This document shows positions 10,455 to 51,711 of a stretch of DNA of 64,000 nt, piece by piece. Within the stretch, counting starts at the first letter, position 1. Every line of letters starts with the position of its first letter. The DNA is from a virus. Below the pieces are notes generated by a model. It ran no database searches. It saw only the letters and a list, made by a program, of their open reading frames with translations, and was not told the DNA's origin. Location of the stretch: IMG/VR virus record IMGVR_UViG_3300028909_000017, positions 61,415 through 125,414 of that record, one strand, 5' to 3'. Made by a program: the position numbers and the translations under genes.

Positions 10455-10489
10455 AAAAACCCTGAATGATTATGTCATCCAGGGTTTTT
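10455..10489 (-). terminator. Attenuator terminator 1
   Basis: AAAAACCCTGGATGA-CATAA-TCATTCAGGGTTTTT ends 7 nt before tRNA-Leu(CAA). Confidence 0.85.
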
Positions 10490-10511
10490 GTTTTCCGATT
10501 TAACATCGATT

Positions 10512-10601
10512 TTAACAATTACCTGGACGCATCAAACTCCAATAGAGCAGAGAATAATCTAATGAACATAAACTTGCCGAATTGGATTTTGAAAAAGTCA
10601 T
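10512..10601 (-). CDS. Attenuator leader peptide 1 (MTFSKSNSASLCSLDYSLLYWSLMRPGNC)
   Basis: 29-aa ORF with AGGA RBS; contains CGTCCAGG, complementary to the terminator 5' arm. Confidence 0.75.
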   Translation of the reverse strand: MTFSKSNSASLCSLDYSLLYWSLMRPGNC

Positions 10602-10699
10602 TTTATTTCCTAAATTAAACGTGTGTTACTGTTCGCTTTTGATTATCATTAATTTACATTACTGATCGCTGTTTCACTTATTAATCAACTACATTATTT

Positions 10700-10728
10700 A
10701 TATTACATTGTTATTTAGTCTTTGTCAA
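10700..10728 (-). promoter_or_regulatory. sigma70 promoter with embedded late-type motif for tRNA array 1
   Basis: TTGACA-17-TAATAT; spacer contains GACTAAATAAC, also found at 47430-47440. Confidence 0.65.
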
Positions 10729-10746: not shown

Positions 10747-11253
10747 TCATAAAATATCGACATTTTTATAATATCGATAAGCCGGCTTTACAAATCCTTT
10801 ATTTTTCCATTGTTTACGGTTATTATTAACCCATTCAAAATTAATCGAATTATTTTCAATAATGATTTGTGTTATTTCACCCGAATTAATTTTAGATTCT
10901 ACGGTATTTTTAATAATGTCAATTCCATTTTGATCGGTTATTTTAAAACCGTATCCACCTGATTGTAATAATCTTTCGATCCAAATTACTGATCTATGGG
11001 AAATTATAGAATTATTTATAATTAATTTTCTATTGGCTTCCAATAAACATATTGCCAATATAGTTAGTAGACCTGCAATTGTGCTCTGGGTATTAATTTG
11101 AAAAATTTGTCTTGATTCATTACCGATATTGCAATCAATCGTAATATTTGCCAAACTATTTTCATTTTTATCTTCAATGAAATAATTTTCATACGAATCT
11201 TCTTTTTCAATCCAAATTATGTTACCTTCAAAAGTTGTAAATTGATTTTTCAT
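10747..11253 (-). CDS. GNAT-like paralog family B (lacks the N-terminal motif)
   Basis: AGLLTIL / WIERLL / PAYRYYKN similar to 11256, 39639 and 47467. Confidence 0.5.
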   Translation of the reverse strand: MKNQFTTFEGNIIWIEKEDSYENYFIEDKNENSLANITIDCNIGNESRQIFQINTQSTIAGLLTILAICLLEANRKLIINNSIISHRSVIWIERLLQSGGYGFKITDQNGIDIIKNTVESKINSGEITQIIIENNSINFEWVNNNRKQWKNKGFVKPAYRYYKNVDIL

Positions 11254-11255
11254 AA

Positions 11256-11786
11256 TTATTTAAGAAATATAGTTGTTGGGCCGGCTTCTGATTCGTTTGT
11301 GCGCAATTTATTTCGAGCTTTGAGCCATTCTGCATATAAATCATTTGAATCGGGAAATTCATCATATTGATTAGATATTTTAATTCCGCGGCCTCCGGAT
11401 TTAACTAATTTGATTAGCCAGACAATTCCGCTTTCGGTTAATCCCTCTTTATTATCAATTTTAAAATATTTTCCTTTTTCTAATAACGATTTGATAATAA
11501 TTGTTATTAATCCTTTAATTCTATTTTTTGGATCCTTGTTTTTCAATGTTAAATTTTCGACGCGTATCAATGTATAGCATTTATTCACCATCGGTAGTAA
11601 AACTCCGATATACGCCATCAAATGTTTGTTATGATCTACAATTACAAACATATCTTTAATTTGAAAAATTTTATGACCATTTGCAATTGCAACTGGCTTT
11701 TTACCATCTATATATGTTGGGTTCCATAAGATTTCTGGTATTTCATCTGCGACATCTAGCTCTTTTAAAATTTCTTTTATTTTCAT
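11256..11786 (-). CDS. GNAT-like paralog family B, MKIKEI N-terminus
   Basis: LIRVENL...GLITIII...LTESGIVWLIKL. Confidence 0.55.
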   Translation of the reverse strand: MKIKEILKELDVADEIPEILWNPTYIDGKKPVAIANGHKIFQIKDMFVIVDHNKHLMAYIGVLLPMVNKCYTLIRVENLTLKNKDPKNRIKGLITIIIKSLLEKGKYFKIDNKEGLTESGIVWLIKLVKSGGRGIKISNQYDEFPDSNDLYAEWLKARNKLRTNESEAGPTTIFLK

Positions 11787-32259: not shown

Positions 32260-32335
32260 TGGTGATCCCGGGAGAAGTTGCATCTCCATATCAGGTTTCG
32301 TAGACCTGTACCTTATCTAGTTAGATGACGGGACC
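32260..32335 (-). tRNA. tRNA-Arg(ACG)
   Basis: Cloverleaf, CT-ACG-AA, CCA. Confidence 0.85.
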
Positions 32336-36351: not shown

Positions 36352-36428
36352 TGGTGGCCCAAGTGGAATTTGAATCCACAATCTTTTCCTTGAAAGGGAA
36401 ATGTCCAAACCAATTAGACGGTTGGGCC
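36352..36428 (-). tRNA. tRNA-Glu(TTC)
   Basis: Cloverleaf, CT-TTC-AA, CCA. Confidence 0.9.
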
Positions 36429-40550: not shown

Positions 40551-40625
40551 TGGTTGCGGGTACCGGATTTGCACCGGATCTTTAGATTATGAGTCTAATG
40601 TATGACGCTACGCTACCAACCCGCT
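40551..40625 (-). tRNA. tRNA-Met(CAT) with initiator-like acceptor
   Basis: A1xA72 mismatch, GCGGG/CCCGC, CAT anticodon, lacks the three G-C anticodon-stem pairs. Confidence 0.7.
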
Positions 40626-41593: not shown

Positions 41594-42546
41594 TTTCTAA
41601 AATATAAATTAATGATTCATTTTCCGATGCTTTAATTAATTCGTTGGCATCCCAAAAATAATTTTCGTTATTTACATTTAACGATATAAACGACTCACCG
41701 GGTTTTAAAGTTTCAATTATTCGGTTAATTTGACCCAATATTAAAGTTGAGTTATTATGCAATGCAGGAATAACCGGTAACCATACAACATCTCCGATTT
41801 TTAATGAAATACCATTTCCATCGATCATTATTTTTCAATTTTAATTATCTGATGATCGTTAGTATTGCACTCGCCATTCATATGCATCAATTTAAGTTGC
41901 TTTCGATTTTTTGCCCACCATTGCCGCCAATTAATAGTTCTTTTATTGTTTCGTAATGGCAGCAAATGTTCACAATTTTTACACCAGAGTTGCATTAATC
42001 TTTCTCCTCTTTATTTTGCGTTTATACGGTGCGGACCCGTCTTTTCTTCTTTAACGATAACCTGCAGATTACCAACAAAGTGTCCTAAATCCGTTAGACG
42101 ATCGCGCAAAAATTATTTTTCCAATAAGTAAATCATTGCTTCATCGGTTGATAATTCACGAATAATTTCACTTTCCAGAATCGTAAATGAACCATCAATT
42201 ATATATGCCTGAGTTATGCCCGTCAAATTTCTACATTCTATAATTTTTCCTATATGAGAATTTCGGGGTGGTCTTTCGGAATAATAACTATATTCGACAT
42301 ATGACCCTATCGCATATTTATAATTCATTGAAGTTGTTACCTTTCCAATAGATATATTAACGATTCTTCCCTGGTTAATTCACGAATAATTTCATTCTGA
42401 AGAACATTCTAGCTATCAATATTATATAATTGGTTTACCGTTCCCGTTGAATAACGCGAAATAATTTTACCTATTTTGTTATAGATACTAGATAGTATCT
42501 ATAACAAATAAACCAATTTCATATTTGTATGTCATTTTAATCTTTT

Positions 42547-42621
42547 TGGTAGGCGAGGAGAATTTCGAAATCTCGATCTTCCTCTTATAAGGGGGACGCT
42601 TTACCTCTAAGCTACTCGCCT
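42547..42621 (-). tRNA. tRNA-Ile(TAT)
   Basis: AGGCGAG/CTCGCCT acceptor, CT-TAT-AA, A73-CCA. Confidence 0.85.
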
Positions 42622-42641
42622 ACATTTTAAATCTAATCTTT

Positions 42642-42719
42642 TGGTGGGACTAGTGGGCATCGAACCCACGACCTCCGCCTTAAAGGGGCGTTGCTGCTGC
42701 CAAACTGAGCTATAGTCCC
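42642..42719 (-). tRNA. tRNA-Lys(TTT), C33
   Basis: CGCC-CCTTTAA-GGCG anticodon arm, A73-CCA. Confidence 0.8.
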
Positions 42720-42732
42720 GTTTTAAAACTTT

Positions 42733-42825
42733 TGGTGCGACCGGTGAGATTTGAACTCACGGTGGGAGAATTACTCTCCATCAGATTAAGAGTCTGGTCT
42801 CTGCTAGCCTCTCGAGTACGATCGC
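42733..42825 (-). tRNA. tRNA-Lys(CTT) with long variable arm
   Basis: CT-CTT-AA; GGAGA-GTAAT-TCTCC variable hairpin; A73-CCA. Confidence 0.85.
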
Positions 42826-42898
42826 ATTTTAAAATCGTTACCAATTTTTAACCCTTGAATTTTTCCTGTATGTTTCGTTCGCGTGTGCTATAAACTAT

Positions 42899-42973
42899 TG
42901 TCAGAGTGAGTCTCGACCTCACATTTCCCAGGCTTACAGCCGTAAGGGCGTCTTACCATTAAACTATCTGACT
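42899..42973 (-). ncRNA. tRNA-like RNA with aberrant anticodon arm
   Basis: GTCAGA/TCTGAC acceptor, D and T arms present, extended CCCTTACGGCTGTAAGCCTGGG arm. Confidence 0.55.
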
Positions 42974-43315
42974 AGCTCGAGACTTCTACTCGAGATCGCT
43001 TCACAATGTCAAAAAGCGTTTGAATCGATTAAAATTTGTTTAAAGACCGAATAAAGTCAAGAGGTAAACTATCATCCCACCCTTTATTGCTACTCCACTT
43101 TTCTATAGTGTCAATATACATTGCAACAAATATACATAGAATCATTGGGCTAATAGTCAATAAAACAACCAAATAAAAAATCTTAAATATTAATCTTACA
43201 ACAAATTTCATATTATCCTTTCTTAAATTATTTGCTGATACTTATCACGTATCAATCTCAACATTCAATATTATCGAACTGTCGACTGTCGTCATGCTCG
43301 ACCCACAAATAAAGT

Positions 43316-43450
43316 TGGCTGAAGGGGTGGGATTCGGACCCACAATGACTTTCATCGCTCGGTTACTTTTGGTCTTACTGGAATCAAACCAGCATAATGC
43401 AAACCTGCGAGACCCACAGCCGAGTGCCTTACCATTCGGCACACCCTTCA
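43316..43450 (-). tRNA. tRNA-Asn(GTT) interrupted by 50-nt insertion in the anticodon; long variable region
   Basis: TGAAGGG/CCCTTCA-G-CCA; CTCGG-CT-GT[50 nt]T-AA-CCGAG. Confidence 0.75.
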
Positions 43451-43635
43451 AAAATTCATTTTTTAAGTTTCATCATATATCTTTTTCTGACAGTATAAAC
43501 ATATATGCCGCATATTTATTTCCCTGTAAATTTCTTCATCAAATGGATCAGCAACGTATTCTACATCTGGTTTAACTTCACCACATTCATCGCAAGTTGA
43601 TTCATGATCCATAATGTTCTCCAATCACTATTTAA

Positions 43636-43665
43636 ATAGTATCATATCTGCCATTAAATTGTCAA
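43636..43665 (-). promoter_or_regulatory. sigma70-type promoter
   Basis: TTGACA-18-TACTAT. Confidence 0.6.
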
Positions 43666-43674
43666 TCTGAAATT

Positions 43675-43748
43675 CGGTTCTGACAAAATTCGAATTTGCA
43701 TCTTTCTCCGTGACAAGGAGACGCTCTATCCAGTTAAGCTACAGAACC
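43675..43748 (-). tRNA. tRNA-Asp(GTC)
   Basis: Cloverleaf, TT-GTC-AC, G73. Confidence 0.9.
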
Positions 43749-43753
43749 ATTAT

Positions 43754-43834
43754 TGCGGTTGATAGGATTTGATACCTATACTAAAGTGGAAGAAATCATC
43801 TACCCACTGCCTCTGTTGTTTGGGCTACAACCGC
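43754..43834 (-). ncRNA. tRNA-like RNA (Leu-like body, elongated anticodon arm)
   Basis: GCGGTTG/CAACCGC-A acceptor, T arm, AGTGGGTAGA-TGAT-TTCTTCCACT arm without a canonical loop. Confidence 0.55.
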
Positions 43835-43846
43835 AAATTTTAAAAT

Positions 43847-43932
43847 TGGTCAGAGCGGAGAGATTCGAACTCTCGATACCCGAAGGTGCCGCGCCCCAAA
43901 CGCGGAGGCAAACCAGACCTGCCGCCGCTCTG
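43847..43932 (-). tRNA. tRNA-Pro(TGG) with long variable arm
   Basis: C1-G72, TT-TGG-GG, ACC-TTCG-GGT variable hairpin, A73-CCA. Confidence 0.85.
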
Positions 43933-43954
43933 ACATTTAAATTTCTGAAAGTAT

Positions 43955-44041
43955 TGGAGCGGGTGAGGAGATTTGAACTCCCAGTGATTTTTCAATCTCC
44001 GGTTTGGAAGACCGGTTCCATACCAAATAGGATTCACCCGC
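43955..44041 (-). tRNA. tRNA-Gly(TCC) with long variable arm
   Basis: GCGGGTG/CACCCGC-T-CCA, CT-TCC-AA, GATT-GAAA-AATC variable hairpin. Confidence 0.85.
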
Positions 44042-44049
44042 ATGTTAAA

Positions 44050-44586
44050 TTAATTTCGTTTAAAACTCTTATGTGTTTTCCAAAAATCTGATCGACATTC
44101 CGGTGGAATTACATCCAATCCTAATTTTTCAAAAACATCGTTTTCTGTTTTGCTTGCAACACTAATGCCGTTTTTAAACAGACCATATTGATTCAATTTC
44201 TCAAAACCTTTATTCTTGCAATATGTCCTTAAACTGATATTGAACTGGGCATTTCCCGTTGCATGAATGCAAGCTGAACCAAAACTATCTAACGGAACGG
44301 TAATAAATTCAACTCTTACGGTCTTGTTTTCAAATACAATATCCAAACTCAAAAGTGCATCACCGCTTCGTACAATTGTATAAGGATAAACATTTTTGAT
44401 GATAAAGAGTAAATCATTAATTGAACAATCCGTTACAACAATATCCAAATCACCGATTTCTTCTTTATGTCGTCTCCATGAACCACAAACCTTATGATTG
44501 ATATTATTTTTATCTAAAATCGTTTGATATTTTTGAATAATTTCAGACGCTTGAATTCTCGAAATTTTGTTTTCAGTTTGCGACAT
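44050..44586 (-). CDS. Minimal DNA polymerase X (palm plus C-terminal domain only)
   Basis: CGSWRR...GDLDIVV, HATGNAQFN..LR, LNQYGLF, IPPECR. Confidence 0.85.
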   Translation of the reverse strand: MSQTENKISRIQASEIIQKYQTILDKNNINHKVCGSWRRHKEEIGDLDIVVTDCSINDLLFIIKNVYPYTIVRSGDALLSLDIVFENKTVRVEFITVPLDSFGSACIHATGNAQFNISLRTYCKNKGFEKLNQYGLFKNGISVASKTENDVFEKLGLDVIPPECRSDFWKTHKSFKRN

Positions 44587-44833
44587 TTCAACCTTTCTTT
44601 AGTCGTGCCTCAATGATTGCTTTTACCAATTCCGGATCTGCTGATTTTAATCCACCAAGAATTAAAGATTTTTTAATTTCATGTAATGGGTCATCTTCCG
44701 GTATTAAACAATCGTTTTCTCTAGGATAATCTAAATTATGTGTCGTTATTTTTATCTGCGTCATATGTTGCCCAATTCCCTACTTGAAAATTCACGGTTT
44801 TTACTGCCATATTTGTATGGTTCTTATTAAAAT

Positions 44834-44917
44834 TGGTAGCCCACCTCGGATTTGAACCGAGACGCTCGAAAGCGGACGCTCTTAAGGCGTATGTGTCTGC
44901 CGTTCCACCAGTGGGCC
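44834..44917 (-). tRNA. tRNA-Leu(TAA)
   Basis: Cloverleaf, CT-TAA-GA, variable arm, CCA. Confidence 0.9.
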
Positions 44918-44933
44918 AAAACTTAATTCTCAA

Positions 44934-45342
44934 TGGAGGGGCCTTATATGCAGGTTCGAATCCCACAACTTCGGCGCCCCCAATGATAGGGATAAATTAC
45001 GAGGAACAGCTTCGAATACTGTACACTCTACTTTATCCCGACTTCAAATTTAATGGCGATTGACCGTATGAGCAAGAGGTCGACTTTGCTGCTTCGGTGT
45101 CGCCTAGTGAGATAAAATCGTATGTATGCATATTCGAATATGCATGGCTTCAATTTTATCCCTTTAAATTTTTTGTGAGGGGTTTCACCTCACACCATCA
45201 TGAATTATTCTTTACATGACTAACGTTCAATCTTTATTACGTCGCATTTTTAGGCAAAATGCGGAAACAAACCGGGGAGCAATGAATTTCACGAAACGTT
45301 CCGCTATCGATGATCAATCGAATTATGCGTCTATCTGCCCCT
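44934..45342 (-). ncRNA. ~410-nt highly structured RNA ending in CCA
   Basis: 5' GGGGC pairs with 3' GCCCC-T-CCA; at least six internal hairpins; no convincing ORF. Confidence 0.6.
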
Positions 45343-45352
45343 GGTATGCTGT

Positions 45353-45422
45353 TAGTTACAATGGGATTCGAACCCATAACCACGGCTCAACCGCCGTTGC
45401 TCTACCATTGAGCTATGTAATT
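45353..45422 (-). tRNA. Pseudo-tRNA with 6-nt anticodon loop
   Basis: Canonical D and T arms; ACGGC-GGTTGA-GCCGT anticodon arm. Confidence 0.55.
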
Positions 45423-45658
45423 ATTAAGCATACCAATTTCAAAAATTTATTGCTATGGAACTCTTATCCTGGATAAACAAGACGGTTTAATTGTATCAAT
45501 CCTATTCAGCCATTCTATCTAAACTGTATTGCTCTGGAATTGAAACGACGGATAACTCACGCAGGGATTTATTGAGCAGACGCTTATTCATCCATTCCAG
45601 TTAAATCTAAACTTTGCCAGTATTTCAGGCCACTAGCCAGACCTAAATAACATCATTT

Positions 45659-45738
45659 ATTTCAATTGTCAAATATCCAAAATTCATTTTGGCCTAAGCC
45701 AACTTTTCAAGTTTAACACTTTAAAAATCTGTTGTCAA
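45659..45738 (-). promoter_or_regulatory. sigma70 promoter followed by boxA-like element
   Basis: TTGACA-17-TAAACT at 45710-45738; ATATTTGACAATTGAAAT at 45659-45676. Confidence 0.6.
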
Positions 45739-45957
45739 CTTCTTTTTAACTCATCCAACCACGAAATTTCATCTTTACCGGAGCATTTTCGGGATCCATC
45801 TTTCCAGCTCGTCGCATTCCCTTTGATGCTCTTCGCTTCAAAAATCTACGATAGCCAATTGAGGAAGCGTCAATCTTTTCAACCTTGCAAAATTTCATAT
45901 TCTGCCTTTCTTGCTACAACTTTGAATTCTTCCATTTGAACTTCCTACCACTCTCTT

Positions 45958-45986
45958 AGTGTATCAAATTGGCGTTAAAATGTCAA
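45958..45986 (-). promoter_or_regulatory. sigma70-type promoter
   Basis: TTGACA-17-TACACT. Confidence 0.65.
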
Positions 45987-46163
45987 CCGTTAATTTCTTC
46001 TCTCAAACGAATTACAACATCATCTTGATCAGCAAATCGATTTCCTTTAATTACCTCACCGTCAACGGTTTCGTAATTTCCCGTCGGAGCAATAGTTCGA
46101 TACAATTCAATCAGCCTTTGTTCCTCCACTCTAAAAATTGCTCGTGATTGTAAATCCGCCATG

Positions 46164-46238
46164 TCTGATCTCCTCACTGAAATAATTATAGCAAATGTTG
46201 CCACCGAATGCAAGAAAATAATTTCTATTGAAAACAAA
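46164..46238 (-). repeat. 75-bp early promoter/RBS cassette, copy 1
   Basis: Identical to 47031-47105; TTGCAT-17-TATAAT followed by GAGGAG. Confidence 0.9.
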
Positions 46239-46359
46239 GGACTTAAAAATCTATTTCAGGATACAAATTTTAGGGTAATATCAATGCTTGCACTACTACC
46301 TAGTAGAGCGTTATGGGGCAATTTTACTTAAATCTGCCCTTTAACATCAACAATTTAAT

Positions 46360-46435
46360 TGGTGGCTACTGCGGGTTTCGAGCCCGCGACACCGACGTCT
46401 TCAACGTCGTGCTCTACCATCTGAGCTAAGTAGCC
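46360..46435 (-). tRNA. tRNA-Phe(GAA)
   Basis: Canonical cloverleaf, CCA. Confidence 0.95.
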
Positions 46436-46438
46436 AAT

Positions 46439-46600
46439 TGGTGATTCCGACCTTTCATCGAACGGGACGAACCCTTTCAATCTTATCGTCTCTGGAGTTT
46501 GATTTTTGGTGGATTGTGTGGGACTTGGCACCCACTTGTTCGGCGCTAGCACTATGCCAACCCATCTGAAATTCCATAAGCCGAATTCCGGACGTGTTCA
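46439..46600 (-). ncRNA. Two small tRNA-like RNAs ending in ACCA
   Basis: 3' ends GGAATC-ACCA (46439) and GTGGG-TGCCAAGT-CCCAC...CC-ACCA (46507); located between tRNA genes. Confidence 0.4.
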
Positions 46601-46611
46601 AAAATTTTTTG

Positions 46612-46683
46612 TGGACCTGGAGAATTTTGAAATCTCGACCTTCGCATTGCAAATGCGACGCGCTGCCTCTGCGCCACAGGCCC
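46612..46683 (-). tRNA. tRNA-Ala(TGC)
   Basis: G3-U70, TT-TGC-AA. Confidence 0.9.
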
Positions 46684-46793
46684 ATATTACTAGATTCAGT
46701 TTTTTCGAATAACCATTATTTTGTGTTCCCATCTGAACATGAATCCTATGCTGTTACTACAATTATACAACATAAGATTCATGTTTGTCTACA

Positions 46794-46897
46794 ATTTCAA
46801 TTGTCAAATATTGCCAATTCTGACCATCTGTACGATCAGCGCGCTCTAAAACGCCTTCAAACTTTTTAATTATACAACATTTACTTCTGGTTGTACA
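46794..46897 (-). promoter_or_regulatory. Extended -10 promoter followed by boxA-like element
   Basis: TGTACA-17-TATAAT; ATATTTGACAATTGAAAT at 46794-46811. Confidence 0.55.
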
Positions 46898-47030
46898 TCA
46901 ATCCACGTATTCTTCCCAATCATAAAAATCGTCGTTCCAATAATCATCTTCACATTGAAAATAAAAATCGTCATCATTGTCGTCAAACTCGTCATCGTAG
47001 ATTTCATCAAACTCGTCAAAACATGACATA

Positions 47031-47105
47031 TCTGATCTCCTCACTGAAATAATTATAGCAAATGTTGCCACCGAATGCAAGAAAATAATTTCTATTGAAA
47101 ACAAA
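47031..47105 (-). repeat. 75-bp early promoter/RBS cassette, copy 2
   Basis: Identical to 46164-46238. Confidence 0.9.
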
Positions 47106-47122
47106 AGAGTTATAGATTAATT

Positions 47123-47194
47123 TGGATCTCATCGGATTCGAACCGATTTCTACGACTTGCGGAGCCATTATTCTACCAATTAAACTAGAGACCC
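47123..47194 (-). tRNA. tRNA-Ala(CGC), C33
   Basis: G3-U70, TC-CGC-AA loop. Confidence 0.8.
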
Positions 47195-47215
47195 ATTTAA
47201 AACTTTACTGCAATG

Positions 47216-47244
47216 AAAAACCCTGACCATTATAGTCAGGGTTT
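47216..47244 (-). terminator. Attenuator terminator 2
   Basis: AAACCCTGAC-TATAATG-GTCAGGGTTTTT about 22 nt before tRNA-Ala(CGC). Confidence 0.85.
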
Positions 47245-47267
47245 GGAAATACTTCCTATTCCTGACG

Positions 47268-47426
47268 TTACTCAATAGCCTTTGGTGCAAATTTGGGTTC
47301 ATTTATCATGTGTTTATTATTCGATTCGACGTCATCGATAAATAAATCATCTTCGGTTAACACATCGAACTTGCGTTCAGTTAATATCGGCTTTTCATTT
47401 ATTCGATTTGTTAATGTCTGCTTCAT
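47268..47426 (-). CDS. Attenuator leader peptide 2 (MKQTLTNRINEKPILTERKFDVLTEDDLFIDDVESNNKHMINEPKFAPKAIE)
   Basis: 52-aa ORF just after GACTAAATAAC; stop is followed by CGTCAGG, complementary to the terminator 5' arm. Confidence 0.7.
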   Translation of the reverse strand: MKQTLTNRINEKPILTERKFDVLTEDDLFIDDVESNNKHMINEPKFAPKAIE

Positions 47427-47466
47427 ATAGTTATTTAGTCTTCCTTAAGGAAAAGTTCACATTATT

Positions 47467-48021
47467 TTAGAATAATTCTTTATCGCCAACCCATTTAATC
47501 ATGGGCATAAGTAGATCAATATTTTTCTTTCTTTGCTTGGAAAATGCTTCTGCCAAACTATTTTTGGGGTTAATAATTATTCCTATTTTACCCTCATCAT
47601 TAAACCAATCTTTATCTAATTCTTCAGAAGATACTGGATTATTATTATAATCGGTAATAGAAAAATATTTTTGAAGCCGAGCAACTTTTAATAACCATTT
47701 AAATCCATCAAAAGTTAAATCTTCCGATGGCTTAATTTTTATTTGCCGTTCTTTTTCCAATATTGCCAAAATAATTATCGTTATTAATCCTTTCTTTTTG
47801 GAAATATTTCCGAGTCGAATAAGTTCATTATTTAATGTTGTTATTACCAATGAAGTTAAACAATTATTTTCATCTATAGTAAAATATGCAATCGAAGAAG
47901 TTCCAATACTTTTGTAGATTTTTTCTAAATCTACAATTTTATATAATTTAGAATTCAATGGCCTCTTTTTACCTGATGCACTTACTAATTCTGATGACCG
48001 TGTAATTTCATTAATTTTCAT
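47467..48021 (-). CDS. GNAT-like paralog family B
   Basis: MKINEI; LIRLGNI..KGLITIII...LTFDGFKWLLKV. Confidence 0.55.
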   Translation of the reverse strand: MKINEITRSSELVSASGKKRPLNSKLYKIVDLEKIYKSIGTSSIAYFTIDENNCLTSLVITTLNNELIRLGNISKKKGLITIIILAILEKERQIKIKPSEDLTFDGFKWLLKVARLQKYFSITDYNNNPVSSEELDKDWFNDEGKIGIIINPKNSLAEAFSKQRKKNIDLLMPMIKWVGDKELF

Positions 48022-48705
48022 CTATTTTTCCAAATTATAAATTAATATTTCATCTGTTGTTAAATGTCGCATCCAGGAAGTATATCGAATTATATTTTTA
48101 TGCTCTAACGTAATCACCGCGGCACCTGAATTTTTTAACCATGTGCTGCTCACTACTCCTATTGAAATTCCATCTTCTGGTGGATAAAATTCCATATAAT
48201 CGCCAATCGTCACCGGAATATTATCTGTATCTTTCGGATCACCCATTTTTAGAACCATCCTTCCCTGGGTAACCACGGAATATTGGGCTGATTTTTTCGA
48301 TCAAATTCGGTTGCTAAAATTTCCTCTTGAACCAATTTCAAATCAGCAGGGTTATTTCTATCAGCTTTATGAATTGAACCAATGCAATGTTCCCAACGTT
48401 CTTTATTTTCCTTGGCTTCACACGCATCTATTTCAAGTCCATAAAATACAAATTTTCCATATGTTGGAATTGTAATTATCCAATAATCCATATTATTCTT
48501 TTCCCCAAAAAATTAGTTTTCCGGCCACCACGGATCTTGCGGTAAAATGCATAAGGTTTCTTTAACTGAGTTATCCGAACATTTTCCATCATTCCAATGT
48601 GGACAATCATCTGTAAGACATCCTAAATTAGAGCGGAAAACAATTGTTCCGTCTTTGGTTCTTCGAAAAAATGGTAAAAATAACGAATCATTATCCATTC
48701 TTTAA

Positions 48706-49149
48706 TTACTTCCTTTCGGGTGTAACTCTTGACCATGTTCGAGTTGCTGGATCGTATTGAACATCATCACCCCATCCATTATCTCTTTTTACAGAATCAA
48801 CAGCAGATTTAATTGCTTTAACAATATCTTCAGATATTGGTCGATATTTGGTTTGAATCGGTTCAATTTCTTTTTGAAAAGAATCATCTAAACTCTTAAG
48901 TTTATCCAATTGAATAGAAACCAAAATATCCCCGGATACTGTTTGATCGCCAATCTTAGCAGACTTCGGAACTAAAATTTGTTTTCCAGGAGTCACCTCC
49001 CCTGCTACTATATTTGAAGTATTGGGTGAATCACTGGTTGCTTTAGATGGAACTGCTACCTTTGTTGAATCATTTTGTTTTGCTTGCCCAGGCAAATACA
49101 TTAAACTACCTCCCAGTAAAAATAATACTGCAATACTAATGTTTTTCAA
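48706..49149 (-). CDS. Secreted/periplasmic hypothetical protein; start abuts the TnpB element end
   Basis: (M/L)KNISIAVLFLLGGSLMYLPGQA signal-peptide-like N-terminus. Confidence 0.55.
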   Translation of the reverse strand: MKNISIAVLFLLGGSLMYLPGQAKQNDSTKVAVPSKATSDSPNTSNIVAGEVTPGKQILVPKSAKIGDQTVSGDILVSIQLDKLKSLDDSFQKEIEPIQTKYRPISEDIVKAIKSAVDSVKRDNGWGDDVQYDPATRTWSRVTPERK

Positions 49150-49190
49150 GTAATTTCTCCAATAAAATAAGTATAACACATATTAAACAA

Positions 49191-50480
49191 TTAAACAATT
49201 ATATGTTCAAATATTCCTGATTTTATTGAATTAAATCTAAAGACACACGAATTAATATCTTCGAGTGGAACCCGGTACTTTATTCCGGACTTCTTTATTG
49301 CATTATGTATTTCTACCCATTTTGAAGCAATTGGCGAAGTATTATCTTCTCTTAATATTTTCGCAAGTAAAAGTCCCACGGCTTCCTCTTCCTTCCATTG
49401 GTTTAGAACGCGAACTTTACTTAAATTGGTATTTGGATACATACACAAACTTTTTACATATTTGTTTGGTCCACGTCTTGCTATTTCTTTTGCTGCGGCA
49501 CACGGGTCTGGTAAATTCCTGAAAAGAACATTACCGATTGTACTCGAATAAGCACAGTTTACTAATTTACATTCGATATTATATCGGTCACTTAGTTTTC
49601 TGATTTGCCACTGAAACAAGTTTCGGTTCCATTCATTGTTTACTAACCGATTGAAACCACGTCCTTTCTTCGTATTTCGAGAGCCCATTGTTAGTTCTTC
49701 TAAAACAACCATTGATACATGAAAATGTACAGCAAGTTTTATAATTCGACATGCAATTTCTTTTGTTTCGTGATTTCGTTTGTTTTTATTTTTACGAGTT
49801 TTATCAGTAAATTTAAATACTTCGTGAAAAACATCACTGCCATTATCGGTAATTGAAATGCCAATATTATTTGGATTCATATCAATACCAAGTATTCGAT
49901 TTGTTATTTTATCGATATTTTCGATTTTTTCTTGCTCGTAAGTAAGGCAAATTTGATTCTTTTTAAGTAAAACCTGAATCGGCATTTTACTAATATTATT
50001 CAGCAAATAAATTATTTCTTTTCTCTGATTTTTACTTATTTTGAATGGTATTTCTATTTTATTATTCTTGTTTGGCTTATAAATTAAAATATCCTGATCT
50101 AATTTTGAAAAATCAAATAACCGATTTGATTTCTGATTGGTTTCGCCCTGAATTTTAACCGGTCTATTTCTTAATTCATGCCATTGATCAGCGGATATTT
50201 TATTTGACCTTCTCTTTTCAAAGGTTTTTCTTCCACCCCAAATAATTTTATAATCTTTTTTCTTTGATTTATAAATGTTAAATTCTTGAACTGCATCTAA
50301 AACGGCCATTCGTTGAAGATAACATCCTAAATTACTAAACATGGATTTTAGTAAAATACTAATATCTTTTTGAATACTTCCCTCAATAATTCTTTTAAAT
50401 GCAAATCTAAATGCCGATGAATATTCCCGTTGAAATGGAATTATTGGTAAATCGGCATTTAATTTTAGTGTCTTCTGCAT
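49191..50480 (-). CDS. tnpB: IS607-type TnpB RNA-guided nuclease (no zinc finger)
   Basis: RuvC-I GIDMN, RuvC-II VLEEL, VNCAYSSTIG, RuvC-III DPCAAAKEIARR. Confidence 0.85.
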   Translation of the reverse strand: MQKTLKLNADLPIIPFQREYSSAFRFAFKRIIEGSIQKDISILLKSMFSNLGCYLQRMAVLDAVQEFNIYKSKKKDYKIIWGGRKTFEKRRSNKISADQWHELRNRPVKIQGETNQKSNRLFDFSKLDQDILIYKPNKNNKIEIPFKISKNQRKEIIYLLNNISKMPIQVLLKKNQICLTYEQEKIENIDKITNRILGIDMNPNNIGISITDNGSDVFHEVFKFTDKTRKNKNKRNHETKEIACRIIKLAVHFHVSMVVLEELTMGSRNTKKGRGFNRLVNNEWNRNLFQWQIRKLSDRYNIECKLVNCAYSSTIGNVLFRNLPDPCAAAKEIARRGPNKYVKSLCMYPNTNLSKVRVLNQWKEEEAVGLLLAKILREDNTSPIASKWVEIHNAIKKSGIKYRVPLEDINSCVFRFNSIKSGIFEHIIV

Positions 50481-50606
50481 AATTTTATATATTTATATCT
50501 TTAGAAAGCAATTCTTAAGAGATTGATTTTGCGCCAATAATACAATTTTTGTGGGGAAATACCAAGAAATTTAATTACTTCTCTTGCACTGATATATTTT
50601 GCCATG
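50481..50606 (-). pseudogene. Internally deleted IS607 tnpA remnant
   Basis: MAKYISAREVIKFLGISPQKLYYWRK nearly identical to the N-terminus of 55025-55630, then jumps to its 3' end. Confidence 0.8.
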
Positions 50607-51711
50607 ATAAATACTCCCCTTTTTATTCTTCCAATTTCCAAAGTAAAACATCTTTTTTGGTTCCTATTTTAATTAAAGTCCAGGGACGTGTTGGCAATAC
50701 TCGTTGATGTGTTGTTAAAAACCATACGTGACCGCAATACGAATAAAAACAAAAAATATTTCTTAACCAAAAAATTTTATGAGTCCCAGGACAAATCCTG
50801 GGCAAGAAAGCAAATTCTTTTTTATTCATATGACTTCTGAAATTTTCAGAAGTATAAGGTATATTCGGGACTTTTAAAGGACGACCCATTATTCACTCAA
50901 CTTATTCACAATTCGACCACTAAATTTAATAATTTTATATAATTTATAGGGAAAATGACCATCATAAATAGAGTTGTCTTTCCCTTCAAGTCTATCATAT
51001 TCAGTAGAATAGAAATTAACATACGTCATGTAAATTTTTTCTAACCAGAAAACATCTTTTGTTTGTGGATCCTGAATTGGAAATAAAGAAAAACCGGATT
51101 CATATTGAAATAAAGGCGCTTTTAAATAACCACCATTATTGAGCGCTGCATCTACCCAACTATATGGTTTTTTCCTCGACATTTTATGTTTAAAAACCAT
51201 GAATTCCTTTCTAAAAATCTACAAATTTGTCTCTTATCTCTGGAGTAATTCGAGTTAAACAATCAGAACATCGTTCATACCATTCTGTACCTTCTCCATC
51301 GTGTGGACCAAAAGAAGTACCACAATGATTGCATTCATCAGGATGTAATCTTAAATATTTACCTCGACGTCGTAAAAAATCAACATACGATTCCCCCATT
51401 AACCAAGAAGGCATTTCATCTGGTGATCTTGGGTCAAAAGGAAATACCAGTTGCTCTCCTTTCATTTTGCTTCTTTATTAAGCGGTTTTATTTCGAGTAT
51501 ACACCATATTCGAAACATTCCAGGAGTATAATCGGGATCGGTATCAATTTCATACTTTTCTGTAATTATTACAGATTCTAGCCAATATGTAATATTTGTT
51601 AACGGTCAAGTTAATGGAAATAATGTAAATATTTTCCTATGTCGTATATCACCCATTTCAAATTTATTTTTCCAATGCATAATTACTCCTTAAGAAGTCA
51701 AGGTAAAGTAT

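What the first reader, a model, noticed from the sequence alone, without database searches (positions are those of the whole stretch)
47123..47440. Second attenuator with complementary codon content in front of the large tRNA region
Seen: the same GACTAAATAAC motif as locus 1, a 52-codon ORF, the stop immediately followed by CGTCAGG (pairs with CCTGAC), then a terminator with a similar AAACCCTG...CAGGGTTTTT stem 22 nt before tRNA-Ala. The leader has no Cys, Trp or Tyr and only one Ser. It ends N N K H M I N E P K F A P K A I E, matching downstream Ala, Phe, Pro, Asn, Lys, Ile, Met, His and Glu tRNAs. All four Leu codons are TTA (Leu-TAA lies downstream) and ATA occurs three times (Ile-TAT lies downstream). 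Inference: the two leaders split the code between two independently sensed tRNA blocks. Caveat: internal sigma70 promoters also feed this region, so attenuation may control only the late-promoter transcript.
Basis: partly seen in the sequence, partly recalled or inferred. Interest (0 to 1): 0.88.

Follow-up and report, generated by a model that had tools for sequence, protein, structure and literature searches.

The report
Possible attenuator before phage tRNA-Ala
A small conserved phage gene ends right at an RNA element that can fold either as a transcription stop or as an anti-stop just before a tRNA gene, so translation of the small gene may decide whether transcription runs on, but the idea that its codons are tuned to the downstream tRNAs is weakly supported.

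Summary
The motif is a 13-nt repeat containing CTAAATA, a T4-family late-promoter variant. It sits 5 nt before the ATG, which predicts a leaderless late mRNA.

The 52-codon ORF is a conserved small protein: three homologues, all 52 aa, with the core under purifying selection. In the one relative with DNA, the same promoter, ORF and terminator precede a protein gene, not a tRNA.

This pairing beats shuffles here (p=0.014), at locus 1 (0.002) and in the relative (0.008). It does so at none of 23 other terminator entries in the genome.

The ORF ranks first of 215 genes for codons read by the downstream tRNAs. This is purely amino-acid composition, is not shared by the relative, and GCG, the codon tRNA-Ala(CGC) reads, is absent.

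Verdict: probably a translation-coupled attenuator built on a real small gene (about 0.45). An ordinary gene plus terminator stays a strong rival (0.35). The "split genetic code" reading is weak.

Earlier unchecked AI notes of this scan report similar modules before tRNA arrays in other phages.

The parts
48034..48063 (-). sigma70-like promoter TTAACA-18-TATAAT in front of the 184-aa gene. An early transcript from here would also run through the small ORF to the terminator.
   Evidence: Consensus scan, 11 of 12 matches. Pattern match only.
47467..48021 (-). 184-aa gene of unknown function. It is a paralogue of the two genes (11786-11256 and 11253-10747) that precede locus 1.
   Evidence: ORF list. 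BLASTP E=7e-9 and 9e-5 to the two locus-1 neighbours. No Pfam or PHROG hit. Orthologues at 70% identity in L001 and 55% in L002.
47430..47442 (-). AAGACTAAATAAC, containing CTAAATA (47438-47432). This is a T4-family late-promoter-like motif 5 nt before the ATG and predicts a leaderless mRNA.
   Evidence: The 13-mer occurs only here and at 10722-10710. TAAATA sits exactly 5 nt before the ATG of 7 of 215 crude genes, and no other offset has more than 2. It also sits 7 nt before tRNA-Thr and tRNA-Gln. In Aeh1 the late-promoter consensus CTAAATA starts at -12 (PMC1524935 passages).
47268..47426 (-). 52-codon ORF (stop TAA at 47270-47268): a conserved small protein that may also act as a leader peptide.
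   Evidence: Three homologues, all 52 aa. For core codons 12-31, pN is 0.21 against pS 0.93. For the tail, codons 32-52, pN is 0.67.
47235..47266 (-). Antiterminator hairpin: GUCAGG (47266-47261) pairs with CCUGAC (47240-47235), enclosing an inner GGAA/UUCC stem (47256-47245).
   Evidence: This is the minimum-energy fold of the nascent RNA, -12.7 kcal/mol. Duplex -10.9 kcal/mol, p=0.014 against shuffles. An equivalent hairpin exists in L001 at -15.8 kcal/mol.
47216..47244 (-). Intrinsic terminator: 12-bp stem (47244-47233 with 47229-47218) and U-run 47220-47216.
   Evidence: -16.1 to -16.4 kcal/mol. z=-3.3 against shuffles. Against L001, 12 of 12 pairs are kept, 1 by a compensatory change and 2 by one-sided changes. 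It is one of only 4 strong - strand terminators in the 64-kb window.
47123..47194 (-). tRNA-Ala(CGC), 21 nt after the U-run.
   Evidence: ARAGORN. Rfam RF00005 at 55 bits.
47052..47080 (-). sigma70-like promoter TTGCAT-17-TGcTATAAT just after the tRNA. It restarts transcription for a 43-aa acidic ORF (47029-46898) and tRNA-Ala(TGC).
   Evidence: Read from the sequence. TGCTATAAT and the following TTCAGTGAGGAGAT leader are enriched upstream of genes in this genome.
10455..10722 (-). Sister module, locus 1: the same 13-mer inside TTGACA-17-TAATAT, a 29-codon ORF (10601-10512), an antiterminator/terminator (10489-10455), then the Leu/Tyr/Leu/Trp/Ser x4/Cys tRNA array.
   Evidence: 17 of 28 residues are S/L/C/Y/W (P=3e-5; 0 of 5824 proteome windows reach this). 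Antiterminator p=0.002. Energies -20.7 against -23.2 kcal/mol.

Best explanation
A ribosome-mediated (translation-coupled) transcription attenuator built on a real, conserved small gene.

Proposed mechanism:
1. The late-type promoter CTAAATA starts an mRNA at or beside the A of the ATG, so the mRNA is leaderless. Early transcripts from the promoter at 48063 also pass through.
2. A ribosome translates the 52 codons behind RNA polymerase.
3. GUCAGG begins 1 nt after the UAA stop. With an inner hairpin it pairs to CCUGAC in the 5' arm of the terminator.
4. If the ribosome is on the last codons or the stop when the 3' arm is made, GUCAGG is buried. The terminator then forms and the transcript ends at 47216.
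5. If the ribosome lags, stalls anywhere in about codons 2-47, or is absent, the antiterminator forms first. Polymerase then runs on into tRNA-Ala(CGC) and the tRNA-rich region beyond.

The element therefore reads general translation speed rather than a chosen codon set.

Shown: the sequence elements, the two competing folds and their energies, their conservation in one relative, and the coding conservation. Inferred: the promoter activity, the leaderless start, the ribosome coupling and the outcome.
For: Structure:
- Two mutually exclusive folds have similar energy. Antiterminator against terminator: locus 2 -12.7 against -16.4; L001 orthologue -15.8 against -15.6; locus 1 -20.7 against -23.2 kcal/mol. 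Refolding barriers are 8.2, 6.5 and 13.0 kcal/mol (folds).
- Complementarity of the upstream 60 nt to the terminator 5' arm beats 500 shuffles at locus 2 (p=0.014), locus 1 (0.002) and L001 (0.008). For the 23 other strong-terminator entries of the genome the lowest p is 0.07.
- In all three cases the antiterminator 5' strand lies at the stop codon or in the last codons.

Conservation and context:
- The terminator is conserved with one compensatory pair.
- The promoter-like motif is conserved 5-6 nt before the ATG in the window, L001 and L002.
- tRNA-Ala(CGC) starts 21 nt after the U-run and no 9-of-12 sigma70-type site lies between them.
- The sister module has a leader rich in exactly the amino acids of its tRNA array.
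- The ORF ranks 1 of 215 genes for codons read by the downstream tRNAs.
Against: - The ORF behaves as a protein. There are three homologues, all 52 aa, and core pN 0.21 against pS 0.93 matches the neighbouring gene's pN of 0.19. Classical leader peptides are shorter and not conserved in this way (recalled).
- In L001 the same module precedes a protein gene with its own Shine-Dalgarno sequence, not a tRNA.
- In L002 the duplex test fails (p=0.78). Its upstream hairpin overlaps the terminator arm by only 3 nt.
- The window antiterminator has only 6+4 bp and is weaker than the terminator. A barrier of 8 kcal/mol could be crossed quickly.
- I found no hairpin of the trp 1:2 type.
- There is no run of control codons and no GCG codon.
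- The codon match vanishes once the amino-acid sequence is fixed.
- Only two DNA orthologues exist, and locus 2 and L001 are not independent.
- Nothing here is experimental.
Confidence: 0.45

Rival explanations
1. An ordinary small late/early phage gene with its own intrinsic terminator. The terminator simply closes the two-gene unit (184 aa plus 52 aa). tRNA-Ala(CGC) is made by leaky read-through or from a weak promoter. The upstream complement is fortuitous or serves mRNA 3'-end stability.
For: - The protein is conserved at 52 aa in three phages, with the core under purifying selection.
- It carries the same TAAATA-N5-ATG start signal as six normal-sized genes of 212-500 aa.
- The module precedes a protein gene in L001.
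- Synonymous codons are unbiased.
- The L002 duplex test is negative.
Against: - The antiterminator complementarity is significant at three loci and at none of 23 control entries.
- The two folds are near-isoenergetic, and the alternative strand sits at the stop codon each time.
- AlphaFold2 gives no fold (pLDDT 58). This is weak evidence from only 3 sequences.
Confidence: 0.35
2. One reading: two leader peptides divide the genetic code. Leader 2 senses the supply of the tRNAs of the large downstream block through its codon content, and leader 1 senses Ser/Leu/Cys/Tyr/Trp.
For: - Leader 2: 45 of 51 codons are read by block-2 tRNAs against a 65.5% background (P=2e-4). 0 of 1472 proteome windows reach 45, and it ranks 1 of 215 genes. 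Only 1 of 51 codons is read by block-1 tRNAs (P=6e-4).
- Leader 1: 14 of 28 codons are block-1 (P=1e-4).
- TTA is used for 4 of 4 Leu (P=0.043) and ATA for 3 of 5 Ile (P=0.096).
Against: - The bias is an amino-acid composition effect. Given the peptide, the codon counts are 31 observed against 27.2 expected (P=0.12) and 46 against 44.5 (P=0.29).
- Block 2 covers nearly all amino acids outside S/C/W/Y, so 'matching' only means lacking those four.
- The homologues have 2-3 Tyr, 1-2 Ser and 1 Gly. The L001 ORF scores 38 of 51 (P=0.11).
- The tail matched to the tRNAs is the unconserved part.
- There is no GCG codon for the only tRNA that clearly depends on read-through.
- The block has sigma70-like promoters and TAAATA motifs of its own.
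- The statistic was computed on the same data that suggested the idea.
Confidence: 0.12
3. A promoter-selective terminator that acts as a temporal switch. On long early transcripts the ORF is poorly translated, because its Shine-Dalgarno-like AAGGA is 15 nt from the ATG. The antiterminator then forms and transcription continues into the tRNA region. On leaderless late transcripts the ORF is translated from the 5' AUG and the transcript terminates, giving a discrete late mRNA for the 52-aa protein.
For: - Both a sigma70-like promoter (48063-48034) and the late-type motif feed the ORF.
- The Shine-Dalgarno spacing is 11-15 nt in all three orthologues.
- This explains why the module is kept in front of a non-tRNA gene in L001.
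Against: There is no direct evidence. It relies on an unproven leaderless start and on the unknown translation efficiency of the internal AUG.
Confidence: 0.1
4. tRNA-Ala(CGC) has its own weak sigma70 promoter overlapping the terminator (a promoter-coupled terminator): TGGTCA(47229-47224)-16-TAAAGT(47207-47202), with the tRNA 5' G 7 nt downstream. On this reading, read-through control is not needed for its expression.
For: - The hexamers are read from the sequence.
- A 2026 preprint reports that terminator stem DNA can serve as a -35 element, with a -10 element just after the T-tract (abstract and section 9 read).
- The terminator loop also holds a perfect TATAAT.
Against: - Only 8 of 12 consensus positions match, below the scan's cut-off, and the site is not listed.
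- No comparable element can be placed at locus 1, where the -10-like TATATT lies 2 nt before the tRNA.
- This does not explain the antiterminator.
Confidence: 0.08

Closest known systems
Leader-peptide (ribosome-mediated) transcription attenuators of amino-acid operons and of pheST (trpL, hisL, thrL, ilvL, pheL, pheM). Textbook knowledge, recalled.
   Same: A short translated ORF sits upstream of an intrinsic terminator whose 5' arm can instead pair with an upstream strand. The position of the ribosome at the end of the ORF decides which structure forms.
   Different: - The ORF has 52 codons and encodes a conserved peptide, with no run of control codons.
- There is no 1:2 protector hairpin.
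- The mRNA is predicted to be leaderless and driven by a phage late promoter.
- The product behind it is a tRNA in this phage and a protein gene in the relative.
Polycysteine leaderless short-ORF attenuators of mycobacteria (bioRxiv 10.1101/834739; title and start of abstract seen).
   Same: A leaderless short ORF at the 5' end of a transcript is proposed to control downstream genes through its translation.
   Different: Those ORFs are short and Cys-rich, and they sense one amino acid. Here the composition is broad and the setting is a phage.
T4-family late promoters: TATAAATA at -13 to -6, and the Aeh1 variant CTAAATA from -12 (PMC1524935; passages read).
   Same: The shared motif contains CTAAATA. 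TAAATA has a fixed spacing to gene starts and to two tRNA 5' ends in this genome.
   Different: With 5 nt to the ATG, the mRNA would have no leader. The passages I read of PMC1524935 do not mention this arrangement for T4-like late genes.
The Anabaena trn tRNA operon, induced under translational stress and repressed by TrcR (PMC8421152 and PMC10272220; search listing with start of abstracts only).
   Same: An accessory tRNA gene set whose expression responds to impaired translation.
   Different: Control there is by a protein repressor in a cyanobacterium, not by a cis-acting leader ORF and terminator in a phage.

Membership tests
Leader-peptide transcription attenuator | Short ORF with start signals close behind a promoter | tested here: met
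   A CTAAATA late-type motif lies 5 nt before the ATG, and the spacing is conserved at 5-6 nt in L001 and L002. At 52 codons the ORF is longer than classical leaders.
Leader-peptide transcription attenuator | Intrinsic terminator between the ORF and the controlled gene | tested here: met
   A 12-bp stem plus U-run at -16.4 kcal/mol, lying 21 nt before tRNA-Ala(CGC).
Leader-peptide transcription attenuator | Antiterminator mutually exclusive with the terminator | tested here: met
   GUCAGG pairs with CCUGAC plus an inner stem, -12.7 kcal/mol, p=0.014. The same holds in L001 (p=0.008) and at locus 1 (p=0.002). The 23 controls all give p of 0.07 or more. L002 fails (p=0.78).
Leader-peptide transcription attenuator | A ribosome at the end of the ORF can mask the antiterminator strand | tested here: met
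   By geometry only. The strand starts 1 nt after UAA (window), at the stop codon (L001) and in the last codons (locus 1). The ribosome footprint of about 12 nt past the A site is recalled knowledge.
Leader-peptide transcription attenuator | Control codons cognate to the regulated product | tested here: inconclusive
   45 of 51 codons are read by the downstream tRNAs and the ORF ranks 1 of 215 genes. However, there is no run of such codons, no GCG, no synonymous bias, and the match is not shared by L001.
Leader-peptide transcription attenuator | Protector or pause hairpin (1:2) that gives termination without translation | tested here: not met
   The folds of the last 60-95 nt of the ORF show only weak helices upstream of the antiterminator.
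Leader-peptide transcription attenuator | Read-through responds to translation of the leader | not testable with these tools
   The phage is uncultured, from peat metagenomes. The RNA contigs do not cover the element.
T-box or other known riboswitch or leader RNA family | Match to an Rfam covariance model | tested here: not met
   Only tRNA hits, at gathering scores across the whole window and at E up to 1 in 47100-47500.
Ordinary small phage protein gene | Homologues conserved at the protein level under purifying selection | tested here: met
   Three 52-aa homologues. Core pN is 0.21 against pS 0.93. There is no Pfam or PHROG family and no confident fold.
T4-type late promoter | TATAAATA or CTAAATA motif at -13/-12 to -6, in front of late genes | tested here: inconclusive
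   The motif is present, and the fixed spacing is enriched at 7 of 215 gene starts and before two tRNAs. The consensus comes from PMC1524935. No transcription start site data exist, and I did not look for gp55 in this record.

The most novel reading that the evidence does not exclude
A giant phage measures how fast ribosomes work. It uses small translated ORFs wired to terminator/antiterminator switches and answers by letting transcription run into its tRNA genes. Two such gauges in one genome have complementary amino-acid content, so different parts of the tRNA set are topped up separately. The second gauge doubles as a conserved, leaderless late protein gene.
Probability: 0.12. Interest if true: 0.85.

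Novelty: new variant of a known kind. Interest (0 to 1): 0.55.

Why it matters
How phages control their own tRNA genes is largely unknown. My full-text searches (PMC Creative Commons papers plus bioRxiv only) found no report of leader-peptide attenuation in front of tRNA genes. If the switch works, it would give a direct feedback from translation speed to tRNA supply. It would also show that a conserved small protein gene can double as the sensor. The design is compact at about 230 nt and can be tested with a synthetic template. Locus 2 is the weaker of the two modules in this genome, so its main value is as a second, differently built example that separates the switch architecture from the codon-matching idea.

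Tried and rejected
Homologue and family searches that found nothing useful:
- No close phage record. blastn gave only 55-nt hits. tblastn of the 52-aa and 184-aa proteins gave no match.
- No PHROG or Pfam family.
- The search for homologous proteins found only the protein itself.
- The IMG/VR scans with the small-ORF alignment and with P0002 found nothing.
- A degenerate DNA pattern for LTERKFDV found L001 again (as L008) plus two unrelated long ORFs, L009 and L010. I dropped both after reading them.
- The third hit of the representative search, P0003 (2377 aa, 7 stretches), was not examined. I set it aside as a likely repetitive-sequence match.

Context that could not be obtained:
- L001's record holds no match to locus 1, but it is a fragment estimated 20% complete.
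- The gene downstream of the L001 module has no homologue in this genome.

RNA evidence:
- Contigs of four metatranscriptome runs were laid on 42000-51000. None covers 47117-47717. Pieces cover 46521-47060.
- These are contigs, DNA may be present in such libraries, and a gap proves nothing. This gives no evidence either way.

Other tests without a useful result:
- AlphaFold2 on 3 sequences gave pLDDT 58 and no secondary structure.
- The ESM Atlas gave no hit of 0.9 or more.
- Rfam found no leader or riboswitch family.
- The covariation test of the terminator has no power with two sequences (229 of 500 shuffles are as high).

Readings rejected:
- pyrBI-type attenuation (recalled mechanism). There the ORF would have to run through the terminator, whereas here it stops 23 nt before it.
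- T-box control, because there is no Rfam match.

Supplementary files of PMC1524935, which list late-promoter coordinates, were not seen.

Full report
CONTEXT

The window is bases 61415-125414 of a 125,414-bp virus record with 34% G+C. Near-identical DNA occurs in many peat metagenome runs.

PHROG hits point to a T4-like myovirus: baseplate wedge, an RnlA-type RNA ligase, a second RNA ligase, tRNA nucleotidyltransferase, nicotinamide phosphoribosyltransferase, and a cytidylyltransferase/NUDIX protein. The only related IMG/VR record is 61.5 kb and is estimated 20% complete. The phage is therefore probably a jumbo phage and this record a fragment.

All tRNA genes lie on the - strand. ARAGORN finds 29. 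Rfam finds 27 at gathering score, five of which ARAGORN missed. Relaxed ARAGORN names four of these Glu(TTC), Gly(TCC), Arg(ACG) and Met, leaves the fifth (42898-42973) unassigned, and reads an Asn gene with a 50-nt insert.

OBSERVATION

- the motif at 47440-47430;
- a 52-codon ORF at 47426-47268;
- TAA followed by CGTCAGG;
- a 12-bp terminator with U-run 47220-47216;
- tRNA-Ala(CGC) at 47194-47123, which is 21 nt after the U-run rather than 22.

The composition statements are correct.

THE MOTIF

The identity with locus 1 is 13 nt (AAGACTAAATAAC), and this 13-mer occurs only at these two places in the record. It contains CTAAATA.

In passages of PMC1524935, the T4 late promoter TATAAATA spans -13 to -6, and phage Aeh1 uses CTAAATA starting at -12. 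With 5 nt between the motif and the ATG, the A of the ATG would be +1.

Within this genome, TAAATA lies exactly 5 nt before the ATG of 7 of 215 crudely called genes. No other offset has more than 2, and I saw no Shine-Dalgarno sequence in the five bases between motif and ATG. TAAATA also lies 7 nt before the 5' ends of tRNA-Thr and tRNA-Gln. That argues it is a promoter rather than a ribosome-binding element.

The motif keeps this position in the two orthologous loci: TATAAATAC plus 6 nt in L001, and ATAAATAG plus 5 nt in L002. The leaderless start is my inference.

THE ORF

The ORF is not a throw-away leader.
- A profile search of 1.84 billion representatives found two homologues besides itself. 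With the L001 ORF this gives three proteins, all exactly 52 aa, sharing K-x2-LTERKFDV-x4-D-x2-ID.
- Between the window and L001, codons 12-31 have pN 0.21 with saturated pS 0.93. That is the same constraint as the neighbouring 184-aa gene (pN 0.19).
- Codons 32-52 have pN 0.67.
- No family, fold or look-alike was found.

In L001 the module (promoter motif, ORF, terminator) is followed by a protein gene with its own Shine-Dalgarno sequence. No tRNA is found in the 3,972 bases held. The contig ends 137 nt into that gene.

THE SWITCH

- The nascent RNA up to the terminator loop folds into a two-tier hairpin. GUCAGG, starting 1 nt after UAA, pairs with CCUGAC in the terminator's 5' arm.
- Antiterminator and terminator energies are -12.7 and -16.4 kcal/mol here, -15.8 and -15.6 in L001, and -20.7 and -23.2 at locus 1. 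Refolding barriers are 8.2, 6.5 and 13.0 kcal/mol.
- I tested the complementarity between the 60 nt upstream and the 5' arm against 500 shuffles, for all 25 strong-terminator entries of the genome plus L001 and L002. Locus 2 gave p=0.014, locus 1 gave 0.002 and L001 gave 0.008. The other 23 genome entries, some of which are the two strands or nested versions of one hairpin, were all 0.07 or higher. L002 gave 0.78.
- L002 has an upstream hairpin that contains its stop codon, but it overlaps the terminator arm by only 3 nt.
- The terminator keeps 12 of 12 pairs between the window and L001, with one compensatory and two one-sided changes. Two sequences give no statistical power.
- In each positive case the alternative strand sits at the stop codon or in the last codons, which is where a terminating ribosome would cover it.

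CODONS

Using the full tRNA set, 45 of 51 codons are read by tRNAs of the downstream block against a 65.5% background. That gives P=2e-4, 0 of 1472 proteome windows reach 45, and the ORF ranks first of 215 genes. Only 1 of 51 codons is read by the locus-1 array (P=6e-4).

These numbers look strong but have four weaknesses:
1. They were computed on the data that suggested the idea.
2. The downstream block decodes almost every amino acid except Ser, Cys, Trp and Tyr, so the match only restates that the peptide lacks those four.
3. Given the peptide, synonymous choice is not biased. Watson-Crick cognate codons number 31 against 27.2 expected (P=0.12), and codons read by any phage tRNA number 46 against 44.5 (P=0.29). 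TTA 4 of 4 and ATA 3 of 5 give P=0.043 and 0.096.
4. The homologues carry 2-3 Tyr, 1-2 Ser and 1 Gly, and the L001 ORF scores 38 of 51 (P=0.11).

In addition, GCG, the Watson-Crick codon of the CGC anticodon, is absent.

Locus 1 is different. There, 17 of 28 residues are S/L/C/Y/W (P=3e-5), and 0 of 5824 proteome windows reach this.

WHAT LIES DOWNSTREAM

Directly after tRNA-Ala(CGC) comes TTGCAT-17-TGcTATAAT (47080-47052), with the genome's recurrent early 5' leader. Further sigma70-like sites and TAAATA motifs precede other tRNAs.

Only tRNA-Ala(CGC) depends clearly on read-through. However, my hairpin scan finds no other strong - strand terminator between 47218 and 12237, so read-through transcripts could extend far.

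A weak promoter overlapping the terminator (TGGTCA-16-TAAAGT, 7 nt before the tRNA) cannot be excluded. Terminator-coupled promoters are described in a 2026 preprint.

VERDICT

The most likely reading (0.45) is a translation-coupled attenuator built on a genuine small gene that reports general translation speed.

An ordinary gene with a plain terminator remains a strong rival (0.35).

The kind is known: leader-peptide attenuation (recalled textbook knowledge), and leaderless short-ORF attenuators in mycobacteria (listing only). The setting would be new, namely a phage late promoter, a conserved 52-aa product and a tRNA behind the switch. Full-text searches found no published case.

Earlier AI notes of this scan describe similar modules before tRNA arrays in other phages, and the sister module here. 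They are unchecked and I did not count them as evidence.

Noticed in passing
genome-wide; in the window e.g. 17716, 33410 and 47426 (gene starts), and 28024 and 24103 (tRNA 5' ends): TAAATA lies exactly 5 nt before the ATG of 7 of 215 crude genes, with no Shine-Dalgarno sequence. It also lies 7 nt before tRNA-Thr and tRNA-Gln. This suggests T4-type late promoters that give leaderless mRNAs and near-mature tRNA 5' ends.
   Followed up: partly
window 47467-48021, 11256-11786, 10747-11253 (all - strand): The genes directly upstream of both candidate attenuators are paralogues (E=7e-9 and 9e-5) of a family with no Pfam or PHROG match. Both modules may descend from one duplicated segment.
   Followed up: partly
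window 36355-36428, 43958-44041, 32263-32335, 40555-40620, 42898-42973, 45351-45423, about 43316-43450: Rfam finds five tRNAs that default ARAGORN misses; four are named Glu TTC, Gly TCC, Arg ACG and Met. The fifth (42898-42973), together with the ARAGORN-called gene at 45351-45423, has an abnormal anticodon loop and is called '???'. The Asn gene, called only by relaxed ARAGORN, carries a 50-nt insert in the anticodon loop.
   Followed up: partly
window 46898-47080 (- strand): A sigma70-like promoter with an extended -10 element and the recurrent leader TTCAGTGAGGAGAT drives a 43-aa, extremely acidic ORF (about half Asp/Glu, with Phe/Tyr/Trp). The promoter and leader cassette is enriched upstream of at least 8 genes.
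   Followed up: no
window 47202-47234 (- strand): The terminator loop contains a perfect TATAAT. The stem plus downstream DNA can also be read as TGGTCA-16-TAAAGT, with the tRNA 5' end 7 nt later. This is a possible promoter-coupled terminator.
   Followed up: no
window, - strand: 47244-47218, 12237-12205, 10489-10455, 9126-9092: My hairpin scan finds only four strong intrinsic terminators on the coding strand in 64 kb. Two precede tRNAs and one closes the first tRNA array.
   Followed up: no
L002 3558-3870: In the more distant relative, an extra ORF that looks frameshifted lies between the 186-aa gene and a 27-codon ORF. That ORF has the same TAAATA-N5-ATG start and an N-terminus (MQTISN) resembling the 52-aa family, followed by a terminator.
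   Followed up: partly
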